From Escherichia coli (GTDB taxonomy: Bacteria > Pseudomonadota > Gammaproteobacteria > Enterobacterales > Enterobacteriaceae), in the NCBI RefSeq assembly GCF_001677475.2, contig NZ_CP015229.1: a stretch of 64,000 nt of DNA. One strand, written 5' to 3'. The position numbers and the translations under genes are program-made. Under the pieces are notes generated by a model that did no database searches, was not told where the DNA came from, and saw nothing but the letters and a program-made list of their open reading frames with translations. Shown in pieces: positions 32,671 to 34,128 of the stretch; the first letter of the stretch is position 1, and each line of letters begins with the position of its first letter.

Positions 32671-34128
32671 ATGACAATTTCAAATTCGAATTTATTGAAA
32701 CCGTTTATTACTGGTACTGAGTTGCCACCTTTTAAAGAGGATGTTTTTTCTAAAACAGAAGAACAATTTAAAAAAAGCCCCCATGGCAAATTACTTTTCA
32801 TTTCCGGAAATGAAAACTTAGTAAACATTTCAGCGGAAAAAATCGATGAAATAAAAAATAGCAAAGATTTCTTTTCAAACATTGTAAATATAATAATTTT
32901 ACTCATTAAGCATCCTGATAAAATTCTGCCCATTCTTCATGGTTGTCCTGCAGAGTCCATCGAACTCATTAAGAATGCGAAACGAACGGGGCAATGGTCA
33001 TATGAGATGACTGATAAGAACGGGCAGAATATTGAAGTGTCCTATATTTTCACTGATACCATAGATGATAAATCTGATGGAAAATTATGCTTAAAAATCT
33101 ATAACTCTTGCAACCAAAATGATTCTAGTACACATGAATATAAAATAGATCATCAACAGTTGAAAAATCACATAAGGCAACTTGAGGAGTGGGCCCTTCT
33201 TGAAAAGTTTTATGATAACAACGCTTATTATTCTAAACGTACAAAACAATTAGAGAAGAAAATTGCCGATGCGGGGTTTATAACAGGGAAGGTTAATGCC
33301 GATAACTTTAATGTAAAAGAGTTTAAAGACGATATAGCCTCGATGCTTTGTGAACAGCCCCCCATGCGTACACACCAGATTTCTTCATCCGGATACTTAT
33401 CTGCCGATAAAGTGCCCGATCTCTATAAGACAAATTTGAAAGACGCGCAGAGAGATCTGAAAACAACACCGGTTGACATCGATGGTGTTAGTCTAAAATC
33501 AAAAACTCGGGAAAAAATTGCAAAAGAAATTGCGAAAAAAACTGAGGAAGAAAATGCGGAAAAAATTGCGAAACAAAATGCGAAGACCATTGAGGAGAAG
33601 AATAGTGAAAAAAACAAGAAAGAAACAAATCCTGAGGATAATTTTGTCTTAAAATTCTCACCGGAAGAAATCAATGAGATGCTCCTGGATTACAGCGATG
33701 AAGAACAAAAAAAATTAAGACCTTTTTTCACTAGTGATCACATGTATTGTTTGTTTGATGCTTTTAGTCAGGGGTTGCATAATGTTGCTCGTAATGGCAG
33801 TCCACGGTATGCAGGTTTACTACGTCAAATAGCATCCAAGTCTGCGATATTACAAGATTTTGATCAACAATTGTTCTGGCGCACGTTTTCAGGAGGAGTC
33901 TTCCATCGACGTATCTCTGTGAACAGCGAGCCAGAAAAGACAGATGTATGGCGATTCAGTACACAATTTGATTTTCCACATATAAATGACAACGGAGAGT
34001 TGTCCAGAACGGTACTCATGTTCGAGGGGGTTGCTGAAAGCAACTTTAAAGATATCGCCAATCATTCCAGCGAATGTTTTTCTTACAGTTGTTATGCCGC
34101 TCCGCTGGATGCGAATGCTAAAAAATAG
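32671..34128 (+). CDS. Hypothetical protein, 485 aa, AT-rich orphan gene not expected at this locus (between malZ and acpH); function unknown
   Basis: Long uninterrupted ORF with GGAG RBS 7 nt upstream of the ATG; base composition far more AT-rich than the flanking core genes; no signal peptide or TM helix; Lys/Glu-rich imperfect repeats in the centre; no motif I can assign to a known family. Confidence 0.7.
   Translation: MTISNSNLLKPFITGTELPPFKEDVFSKTEEQFKKSPHGKLLFISGNENLVNISAEKIDEIKNSKDFFSNIVNIIILLIKHPDKILPILHGCPAESIELIKNAKRTGQWSYEMTDKNGQNIEVSYIFTDTIDDKSDGKLCLKIYNSCNQNDSSTHEYKIDHQQLKNHIRQLEEWALLEKFYDNNAYYSKRTKQLEKKIADAGFITGKVNADNFNVKEFKDDIASMLCEQPPMRTHQISSSGYLSADKVPDLYKTNLKDAQRDLKTTPVDIDGVSLKSKTREKIAKEIAKKTEEENAEKIAKQNAKTIEEKNSEKNKKETNPEDNFVLKFSPEEINEMLLDYSDEEQKKLRPFFTSDHMYCLFDAFSQGLHNVARNGSPRYAGLLRQIASKSAILQDFDQQLFWRTFSGGVFHRRISVNSEPEKTDVWRFSTQFDFPHINDNGELSRTVLMFEGVAESNFKDIANHSSECFSYSCYAAPLDANAKK

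What the first reader, a model, noticed from the sequence alone, without database searches (positions are those of the whole stretch)
33500..33640. Imperfect tandem Lys/Glu-rich repeat inside the orphan ORF
The DNA carries near-repeats (aaaattgcaaaagaaattgcgaaaaaa / gaaaaaattgcgaaacaaaatgcgaag) encoding EKIAKEIAKK / EKIAKQNAK / TIEEKNSEKNKK. This looks like a charged helical or disordered linker between an N-terminal and a C-terminal domain, suggesting a two-domain architecture. Short repeats like this can vary in copy number between strains.
Basis: seen in the sequence. Interest (0 to 1): 0.4.

Follow-up and report, generated by a model that had tools for sequence, protein, structure and literature searches.

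The report
Copy-number-variable charged repeat in orphan gene
A 12-base in-frame tandem repeat inside an uncharacterised E. coli-only accessory gene gains and loses whole 4-amino-acid units between strains, which is an ordinary kind of repeat polymorphism encoding a Lys/Glu-rich, probably helical spacer in a protein of unknown function.

Summary
Window 33511-33630 holds about 10 head-to-tail 12-nt units (6 clear, 4 degenerate) that encode 4-residue units (EKIA KEIA KKTE EENA EKIA KQNA and so on). They lie inside a 485-aa, AT-rich ORF (32671-34128, + strand). The ORF is the only gene of a 1.66-kb island inserted between the convergent genes malZ and acpH of E. coli.

The linker between conserved anchors is 31, 35, 39, 43, 47, 51 or 55 aa long, always in steps of 4. 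Alleles with identical 438-aa flanks still differ in unit number. Internal indels are confined to residues 282-302, apart from a 9-residue gap at 323-331 in a rarer recombinant allele class, which replaces the repeat with a shorter non-repetitive segment.

Two low-confidence AlphaFold models agree on a helix over the repeat (residues 277-308) followed by a non-helical stretch. The two-domain architecture remains unproven.

The gene is a true orphan. Only its own cluster was found among 1.84 billion protein representatives, and there was no Pfam, NCBIfam, PADLOC, PDB, phage or plasmid match. About 21% of complete E. coli genomes carry it. The reading frame is maintained but the protein evolves fast (dN/dS about 0.5-1).

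Verdict: an ordinary coding tandem repeat in an unexplained orphan protein, of low to moderate interest.

The parts
32486..34148 (.). A 1663-bp AT-rich single-gene island between the malZ stop codon and the acpH stop codon. Genomes without the island have only 4 bp here.
   Evidence: GC content is 0.32-0.39 inside the island against about 0.54 in the flanks. Occupied and empty sites were compared directly. The island covers at least 80% of the query in 1126 of 5426 complete E. coli genomes, always as one chromosomal copy.
32519..32564 (+). Hairpin in the 185-bp leader downstream of malZ. It may act as a malZ terminator or RNA-stability element, but it has no T-run.
   Evidence: RNA fold energy is -26.4 kcal/mol, z = -2.6 against shuffles. 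The scan found no sigma-70-like promoter between malZ and the ORF.
32660..32663 (+). GGAG Shine-Dalgarno-like motif 7 nt upstream of the ATG.
   Evidence: Read directly from the sequence.
32671..34128 (+). Orphan ORF of 485 aa plus stop, annotated 'hypothetical protein' in every record examined.
   Evidence: ORF list. RefSeq annotations. The chance of an open frame this long at this composition is about 7e-17, and the other five frames carry 18-58 stops.
32671..33495 (+). N-terminal region (residues 1-275). It is predicted to be mixed alpha/beta, has no signal peptide or transmembrane segment, and is free of indels.
   Evidence: Secondary structure from the model. No gaps at residues 1-275 across 139 distinct alleles. 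Residues 102-158 resemble PKD repeats only weakly.
33511..33630 (+). The in-frame tandem array of 12-nt / 4-aa units. Six units are clear (33511-33582) and four are degenerate (33583-33630).
33514..33576 (+). The indel-prone core (residues 282-302), where all unit gains and losses among alleles map.
   Evidence: Alignment of 139 distinct alleles. Codon-level alignment of 7 alleles shows 12-nt blocks gained or lost.
33499..33594 (+). Predicted long alpha-helix (residues 277-308) covering the repeat.
   Evidence: Helix H277-308 in the full-length model (pLDDT about 58-69). The same helix appears as H9-40 of the fragment model (pLDDT 65-72).
33595..33660 (+). Non-helical, low-confidence K/E/N-rich stretch (residues 309-330), probably flexible.
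   Evidence: pLDDT 31-46 in both models. Nine of these residues (323-331) are missing from L006-type alleles.
33661..34125 (+). C-terminal region (residues 331-485). Helices at 331-353 are the most confident part of the models (pLDDT 81-90). A predicted alpha+beta part follows at low confidence.
   Evidence: Residues 396-485 are the most conserved block.
30668..32485 (+). malZ (maltodextrin glucosidase), the left flanking core gene.
34149..34730 (-). acpH (ACP phosphodiesterase), the right flanking core gene, convergent with the ORF. Its stop codon lies 20 bp from the ORF stop.
   Evidence: In the related loci acpH is annotated as a 582-nt CDS.

Best explanation
The segment is a coding minisatellite: a tandem array of 12-nt units that sits in frame inside a real but uncharacterised, E. 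coli/Shigella-restricted accessory gene.

Shown. Whole units are gained and lost, and this happens faster than point substitutions accumulate in the rest of the protein. Because the unit is a multiple of three, every event keeps the reading frame. The result is a connector of 31-55 residues.

Inferred. The mechanism is replication slippage or unequal recombination between units. The encoded K/E/A/I/N-rich stretch forms a solvent-exposed, largely helical charged spacer, followed by a flexible tail. It joins the N-terminal region (residues 1-275) to the C-terminal region (residues 331-485). Its exact length and sequence matter little, so the variation is mostly neutral. At most it adjusts the spacing between the two regions. 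The protein's own function is unknown.
For: A tandem 12-nt array is present and its periodicity is statistically significant.

Seven sequenced alleles differ by 12-nt blocks inside the array.

Linker lengths among about 120 protein-cluster representatives are 31, 35, 39, 43, 47, 51 and 55 aa.

DNA hits in complete genomes differ in length by -36, -12, 0 and +12 nt.

Four flank haplotypes with identical 438-aa flanks carry different unit numbers. One example is ...KKTAEKTAKKNS... against ...KKTAEKTAEKTAKKNS....

Internal indels among 139 distinct alleles occur only at residues 282-302, plus 323-331 in one allele class. Residues 276-325 also have the densest substitutions.

Both AlphaFold runs give a helix at 277-308 with moderate confidence and a non-helical stretch at 309-330.

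Oppositely charged i/i+3 and i/i+4 pairs are enriched: 17 against 11.2 +/- 2.6 in shuffles.

A 461-aa allele class, intact in two unrelated strains, swaps the repeat for a 28-aa unrelated connector while keeping the flanks. The repeat sequence is therefore dispensable.

The ORF is real. The probability of a chance open frame of this length is about 7e-17. The probability of staying stop-free under neutral change at the L006 level of divergence is about 0.003.
Against: Overall model confidence is low (pLDDT 39.9 and 52.4), so neither the helix nor the domain boundaries are secure.

E+K+R content is only about 52% and there is a regular I/A position, so this is not a textbook ER/K single alpha-helix.

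Neutrality of the length variation is assumed, not tested.

In-frame indels do not show that selection preserves the frame, because a 12-nt unit can only change length in multiples of three.

dN/dS of about 0.5-1 across the whole gene leaves open that the protein is only weakly functional.

Nothing here shows the gene is expressed. No consensus promoter was found upstream.
Confidence: 0.7

Rival explanations
1. The variation is adaptive. The repeat and the adjacent central block form a specificity-determining or evasion module in a protein engaged in an arms race with phage, host or competing bacteria. On this reading, length and sequence changes are selected rather than neutral.
For: Diversity peaks in the centre of the protein: 24 of 33 and 20 of 25 columns are polymorphic at residues 276-325, against 5-16 of 25 elsewhere. 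dN/dS is about 1.3 in codons 331-395 and at or above 1 in several comparisons. A deeply divergent central cassette has been recombined into an otherwise O157-like allele, and its last 270 nt are identical to that allele. The gene is AT-rich, accessory, and present in only 21% of genomes.
Against: There is no match to any known defence, toxin or effector family. The protein has no signal peptide or transmembrane segment. No mobility genes or partner genes lie in the island. The malZ-acpH junction holds either this one gene or nothing, so it is not a hotspot with varied cargo. High dN/dS at such low divergence is also what relaxed constraint produces. Only a handful of DNA alleles were analysed.
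Confidence: 0.15
2. The gene is decaying or functionless. The ORF is a recently acquired gene, possibly silenced by H-NS, that E. coli no longer uses. The repeat polymorphism is then ordinary slippage in unconstrained AT-rich DNA.
For: dN/dS is about 0.5-1, and segregating sites are spread nearly evenly over the three codon positions (45:30:48). One O55:H7 strain has deleted most of the gene. No promoter-like site lies upstream. No homologues exist anywhere else.
Against: The frame is intact in all 8 DNA alleles examined and is annotated as an intact CDS in nearly all sampled carriers. The probability of remaining stop-free at the divergence of the L006 lineage under neutrality is about 0.003. 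Residues 396-485 and much of the N-terminal region are well conserved. A proper Shine-Dalgarno motif is present.
Confidence: 0.12
3. The repeat forms a coiled coil that dimerises or oligomerises the protein, rather than a monomeric spacer.
For: The segment is a predicted long helix with regularly spaced Ile and Ala residues.
Against: The hydrophobic periodicity is 4.0 residues. The hydrophobic moment peaks at 90 degrees and is low at 100-105 degrees, the range expected for a heptad or amphipathic helix. Changing the length in 4-residue steps would shift any heptad register. Only about 4 Ile residues occur in about 30 residues.
Confidence: 0.03

Closest known systems
In-frame coding tandem repeats (VNTR/minisatellite loci) in bacterial genes, of the kind used as MLVA typing markers in E. 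coli and Shigella (from my own knowledge)
   Same: Head-to-tail units whose length is a multiple of three. Copy number differs between closely related strains through slippage. The reading frame is preserved. The encoded stretch is a low-complexity, tolerant part of the protein.
   Different: I found no paper that describes this locus as a typing marker or otherwise. The units are imperfect (about 75% identity) and the copy range is small, spanning 7 length classes.
Lys/Glu/Ala-rich helical spacer domains such as the central domain II of E. coli TolA, and ER/K single alpha-helices in myosins and other proteins (from my own knowledge; a lead only, not tested)
   Same: Charged K/E/A-rich repetitive sequence that is predicted to form a long isolated helix. 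Oppositely charged i/i+4 pairs are enriched. It plausibly acts as a spacer between functional regions and tolerates changes in length.
   Different: It is much shorter, at about 32 helical residues. The charged fraction is only about 52%. It has a regular 4-residue unit with Ile/Thr/Asn and Ala positions. It shares no sequence homology with these proteins, and there are no experimental data.
Phase-variable contingency loci (simple-sequence repeats in Neisseria and Haemophilus genes)
   Same: Repeat-mediated hypermutability that is confined to a short tract within a gene.
   Different: Contingency repeats have units of 1-5 or 7 nt that shift the frame and switch expression on and off. Here the unit is 12 nt, so every event stays in frame and only the length of the protein changes.
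PKD (Ig-like beta-sandwich) domains, considered only for residues 102-158 of the N-terminal region
   Same: There is weak local similarity to all three PKD repeats of one metagenomic protein, in the pattern TGxW...D.NG.N...S...D...THxY. Beta-strands are predicted in that stretch.
   Different: The Pfam PKD models do not match the ORF even at E <= 1. The second half of a PKD domain is replaced by a predicted helix. The E-value is inflated because the same similarity is counted three times.

Membership tests
Coding tandem repeat with copy-number polymorphism (VNTR/minisatellite) | Head-to-tail repetition of a unit, beyond what composition alone would give | tested here: met
   TRF reports period 12 with 6.1 copies. 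Base identity at lag 12 is 0.61 against 0.41 +/- 0.04 in codon shuffles, reached by 1 of 5000 shuffles.
Coding tandem repeat with copy-number polymorphism (VNTR/minisatellite) | Unit length is a multiple of 3 and the array lies inside a genuine ORF | tested here: met
   The 12-nt units are in register with the 485-codon ORF. The ORF is not a chance frame (about 7e-17) and stays open in alleles up to 16% divergent at the protein level.
Coding tandem repeat with copy-number polymorphism (VNTR/minisatellite) | Copy number differs among strains by whole units | tested here: met
   Linker lengths are 31 to 55 aa in steps of 4. 12-nt blocks are gained or lost in the codon alignment. Genomic hits differ in length by -36, -12 and +12 nt.
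Coding tandem repeat with copy-number polymorphism (VNTR/minisatellite) | Length changes are recurrent and recent relative to point mutation | tested here: met
   Four haplotypes with identical 438-aa flanks each carry two or three linker lengths.
ER/K single alpha-helix (SAH) domain | Very high E+K+R content (typically above about 70-75%) over 30 or more residues | tested here: not met
   23 of 44 residues (52%) are E, K or R. The rest are A, N, T, I, S and Q.
ER/K single alpha-helix (SAH) domain | Enrichment of oppositely charged i/i+3 and i/i+4 pairs | tested here: met
   17 pairs against 11.2 +/- 2.6 in shuffles, reached by 120 of 5000 shuffles. The enrichment is modest.
ER/K single alpha-helix (SAH) domain | A stable, monomeric, isolated helix in solution | not testable with these tools
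   The only evidence is AlphaFold secondary structure at pLDDT 58-72.
Canonical coiled coil | Heptad (3.5-residue) hydrophobic periodicity | tested here: not met
   The hydrophobic moment peaks at a period of 4.0 residues (1.44) and is low at 3.6 and 3.43 (0.28 and 0.57).
Phase-variable contingency locus | Repeat unit not divisible by 3, so that slippage switches the frame on and off | tested here: not met
   The unit is 12 nt. All length variants keep the frame and the same C-terminus.
PKD domain (Pfam PF00801 / PF18911), N-terminal residues 102-158 | Match to the family profile above the gathering score | tested here: not met
   Pfam reports no PKD hit at E <= 1. The only evidence is a weak pairwise similarity to P0140.
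Known anti-phage defence proteins (PADLOC-DB) | Match to any defence-system profile | tested here: not met
   The only hit is a Cas7e match at E = 0.022 over the low-complexity linker. The Pfam Cas_CT1975 hit covers the same region and falls below its cutoff.

The most novel reading that the evidence does not exclude
The orphan protein could be a fast-evolving conflict factor, for example a previously unrecognised single-gene anti-phage or inter-bacterial system, or a secreted host-interaction protein. In that case its hypervariable central module (the variable-length charged helix plus the adjacent recombining block at residues 276-395) would set target specificity. The repeat would then be an evolvability device that generates functional length variants, rather than neutral slippage.
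Probability: 0.1. Interest if true: 0.6.

Novelty: new member of a known kind. Interest (0 to 1): 0.25.

Why it matters
The repeat itself is an ordinary slippage-prone coding tandem repeat. Practically, it is a small, clean length polymorphism with 7 classes, in a gene carried by about one fifth of E. coli genomes, including O157:H7, O145 and EAEC 042. It could serve as a minor typing marker.

The host gene is the more interesting object. It is a 485-aa protein confined to E. coli/Shigella and has no detectable relative among about 15 billion predicted proteins. Its reading frame is maintained, yet it evolves almost as fast at non-synonymous sites as at synonymous ones, and it has a recombining hypervariable centre. 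If the gene proves to be functional, it would be an example of a young or fast-evolving lineage-specific gene whose role is entirely unknown.

Tried and rejected
Family assignment. Pfam, NCBIfam, PADLOC and PHROGs gave only sub-threshold hits, driven by the low-complexity segment. PDB sequence searches with the single protein and with a profile gave nothing below E = 0.1.

Distant homologues. phmmer against 1.84 billion representatives found only the gene's own cluster, fragments of it, and one weak PKD-protein hit. A search with the divergent central block returned 195-204-aa 'relatives'. These turned out to be pieces of the same gene from frameshifted assemblies, in which every neighbouring gene is split too.

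Origin. There was no relative in phage genomes or IMG/VR viral contigs. The two 'plasmid' hits are mislabelled 4.9-Mb chromosomes. A back-translated pattern for the conserved peptide MFEGVAESNFKDIANH matched none of 100,044 species-representative genomes.

Structure. Full-length and C-terminal AlphaFold models were both low confidence. Foldseek against the PDB with the better model gave no hit with E < 0.1 or TM > 0.25, so I disregard it. The afdb50 library was unavailable.

Literature. Searches on gene context, guessed O157 locus tags, VNTR plus malZ, and six RefSeq protein accessions found nothing relevant.

Rejected argument. I first took in-frame indels as evidence of selection for coding. 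A 12-nt unit can only produce in-frame changes, so I used the stop-codon simulation instead.

Full report
**1. What is at the coordinates**

The window is an Escherichia coli chromosomal segment with the gene order proY-malZ-[ORF]-acpH-queA-tgt. Positions 33500-33640 lie inside a 485-codon ORF at 32671-34128 on the + strand.

Tandem Repeats Finder reports a period-12 array at 33512-33584 (6.1 copies, 77% matches), with harmonics extending to 33625. The repeat finder shows copies in register at a spacing of 12. Read in codon register, the units are EKIA, KEIA, KKTE, EENA, EKIA, KQNA, KTIE, EKNS, EKNK and KETN, spanning 33511-33630.

The periodicity is not just an effect of composition. Base identity at lag 12 is 0.61, against 0.41 +/- 0.04 when the same codons are shuffled, and only 1 of 5000 shuffles reached the observed value.

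**2. The gene that holds it**

The ORF is the only gene of a 1663-bp AT-rich island at 32486-34148. GC content is 0.32-0.39 inside and about 0.54 in the flanks. The island sits exactly between the stop codons of the convergent core genes malZ and acpH. Genomes without it have just 4 bp there.

At least 80% of the query is covered in 1126 of 5426 complete E. coli genomes. It is always a single chromosomal copy at this site and is always annotated 'hypothetical protein'. Carriers include O157:H7, O145, EAEC 042, ETEC and urinary isolates, and the protein is also recorded from Shigella dysenteriae.

It is a genuine orphan:
- Pfam, NCBIfam, PADLOC and PHROGs give no significant hit.
- PDB sequence searches give nothing.
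- phmmer against 1.84 billion representatives of about 15 billion proteins finds only the gene's own cluster, fragments of it, and one weak hit to a PKD-domain protein over residues 102-158. The Pfam PKD models do not support that hit.
- There is no relative in phage genomes, viral contigs or true plasmids.
- A conserved-peptide DNA pattern is absent from 100,044 species-representative genomes.
- Apparent short homologues were fragments from frameshifted assemblies.

**3. Is it a real gene?**

The repeat unit is 12 nt, so in-frame indels carry no information about selection. I used other tests.
- An open frame of 485 codons at this base composition has a chance probability of about 7e-17. The other five frames contain 18-58 stops.
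- All eight DNA alleles examined are open and end in the same residues.
- Placing the 133 substitutions that separate the window allele from the most divergent allele (L006) at random leaves the frame open in only 0.3% of simulations.
- A GGAG motif lies 7 nt upstream of the ATG.

The protein is nonetheless weakly constrained. Pairwise dN/dS is about 0.5-1, with some blocks above 1. Segregating sites are spread 45:30:48 over the three codon positions. No promoter-like site precedes the ORF. The 185-bp leader contains a stable hairpin at 32519-32564.

**4. Copy-number variation**

Seven alleles taken from complete genomes encode 461, 481, 481, 485, 485, 485 and 489 aa, and every indel falls in the repeat. 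The codon alignment shows 12-nt blocks gained or lost.

Among about 120 protein-cluster representatives, the segment between the conserved anchors GVSL and DNFVLKF is 31, 35, 39, 43, 47, 51 or 55 aa long, in 39 sequence variants. A spread sample of genomic hits differs in length by -36, -12, 0 and +12 nt.

Four haplotypes whose 438 flanking residues are identical each carry two or three different linker lengths. An example is KKTAEKTAKKNS against KKTAEKTAEKTAKKNS, a clean duplication of one EKTA unit. Unit gain and loss therefore recurs, and it is faster than substitution elsewhere in the protein.

In an alignment of 139 distinct alleles, internal gaps occur only at residues 282-302, plus 323-331 in one allele class. 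Residues 276-325 also have the highest density of polymorphic columns.

**5. The allele class without the repeat**

About 31 of 1127 carriers match the repeat region at only 80-90% identity. Two such alleles, L006 and L011, come from pig isolates in Canada and China. Both are intact 461-aa proteins.

In these alleles the repeat is replaced by a 28-aa non-repetitive connector (RRHLADIIHVKCMREKNYTTDQGFELPE). They are recombinants:
- Codons 396-485 are nucleotide-identical to the O157-type allele.
- Codons 331-395 have dS 0.16 and dN 0.20.
- The linker block is saturated.

The repeat sequence is therefore dispensable, and a deeply divergent central cassette circulates in the population. One O55:H7 strain has deleted most of the gene.

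**6. Structure**

AlphaFold with the shallow family alignment gave mean pLDDT 39.9 for the full protein. The model for residues 269-485 gave 52.4. Both models agree on local features only:
- A helix at residues 277-308 across the repeat (pLDDT 58-72).
- A non-helical low-confidence stretch at 309-330.
- Confident short helices at 331-353 (pLDDT 81-90).

The repeat has a hydrophobic periodicity of 4.0 residues rather than 3.5-3.6, so it is neither a heptad coiled coil nor a classical amphipathic helix. Oppositely charged i/i+3 and i/i+4 pairs are modestly enriched (17 against 11.2 +/- 2.6). E+K+R content is only 52%, below that of typical ER/K single helices.

Foldseek against the PDB returned nothing meaningful, as expected for such a model. 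The idea of two folded domains separated by this segment is plausible, because the segment tolerates 28-55 residues and complete replacement while both flanks stay conserved. It is not demonstrated.

**7. Explanation**

The most likely explanation (about 0.7) is a slippage-prone coding minisatellite. It encodes an exposed, charged, mainly helical spacer followed by a flexible tail. Its length varies with little consequence.

The rivals are:
- An adaptive hypervariable module in a conflict protein (about 0.15).
- Slippage in a decaying, unused gene (about 0.12).
- A coiled-coil oligomerisation element (about 0.03).

The repeat and its polymorphism are shown. The slippage mechanism, the helix, the spacer role and the neutrality of the variation are inferred.

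**8. Comparison with known things, and verdict**

The segment meets every defining feature of a coding VNTR. It fails the composition criterion for an ER/K single helix, the heptad criterion for a coiled coil, and the frameshift criterion for a contingency locus. The N-terminal similarity to PKD domains fails the profile test.

I found no paper that mentions the gene or the repeat. The repeat is a new member of a well-known kind and is of low interest in itself. The unexplained, fast-evolving, recombining orphan gene around it gives the locus modest additional interest.

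Noticed in passing
L006 (NZ_CP149553.1) 774-2156 and L011 (NZ_CP122503.1) 1372-2754; corresponds to window 33496-33855: A 461-aa allele class is a recombinant. Its last 90 codons are nucleotide-identical to the O157-type allele. Codons 331-395 have dS 0.16 and dN 0.20, and the linker block is saturated. This implies an unsampled, deeply divergent central cassette.
   Followed up: partly
L010 (NZ_CP039837.1, O55:H7 USDA5905) 1094-2834: A deletion fuses a C-terminally truncated malZ to the last third of the orphan ORF. Both are annotated as pseudogenes. The gene, and malZ, are therefore dispensable in that strain.
   Followed up: no
window 34143-34151 compared with L007 588-596: The last sense codon and stop codon of acpH differ between occupied sites (CTC TGA) and empty sites (TTA TAA), yet both encode ...KAL-stop. 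The right edge of the island therefore lies within the final codons of acpH.
   Followed up: no
window 32519-32564 (+): A stable hairpin (-26.4 kcal/mol, z = -2.6) lies in the island leader just downstream of malZ and has no T-run. The scan found no sigma-70-like promoter between malZ and the ORF, so the ORF may be transcribed by read-through from malZ.
   Followed up: partly
window 32974-33144 (ORF residues 102-158): This stretch shows weak similarity to each of three PKD repeats of a metagenomic PKD / peptidoglycan-binding protein, P0140 (library E = 5.6e-6). Pfam PKD profiles do not support it.
   Followed up: partly
window 47046-47121 (-): Rfam naRNA4 (nucleoid-associated ncRNA 4, a REP-type element) matches above its gathering score, 63.7 bits.
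   Followed up: no
window 9001-10000 and 61001-62000: These two 1-kb bins also have low GC (0.39 and 0.42) in an otherwise roughly 0.52 GC window. They may be further horizontally acquired or AT-rich genes.
   Followed up: no
H50 (NZ_AP024112.1) and H88 (NZ_CP031349.1): Two genomic hits span 550 and 564 bp for the 551-bp query. These differences are not multiples of 3, so they may be frameshifted alleles or sequencing or alignment artefacts.
   Followed up: no
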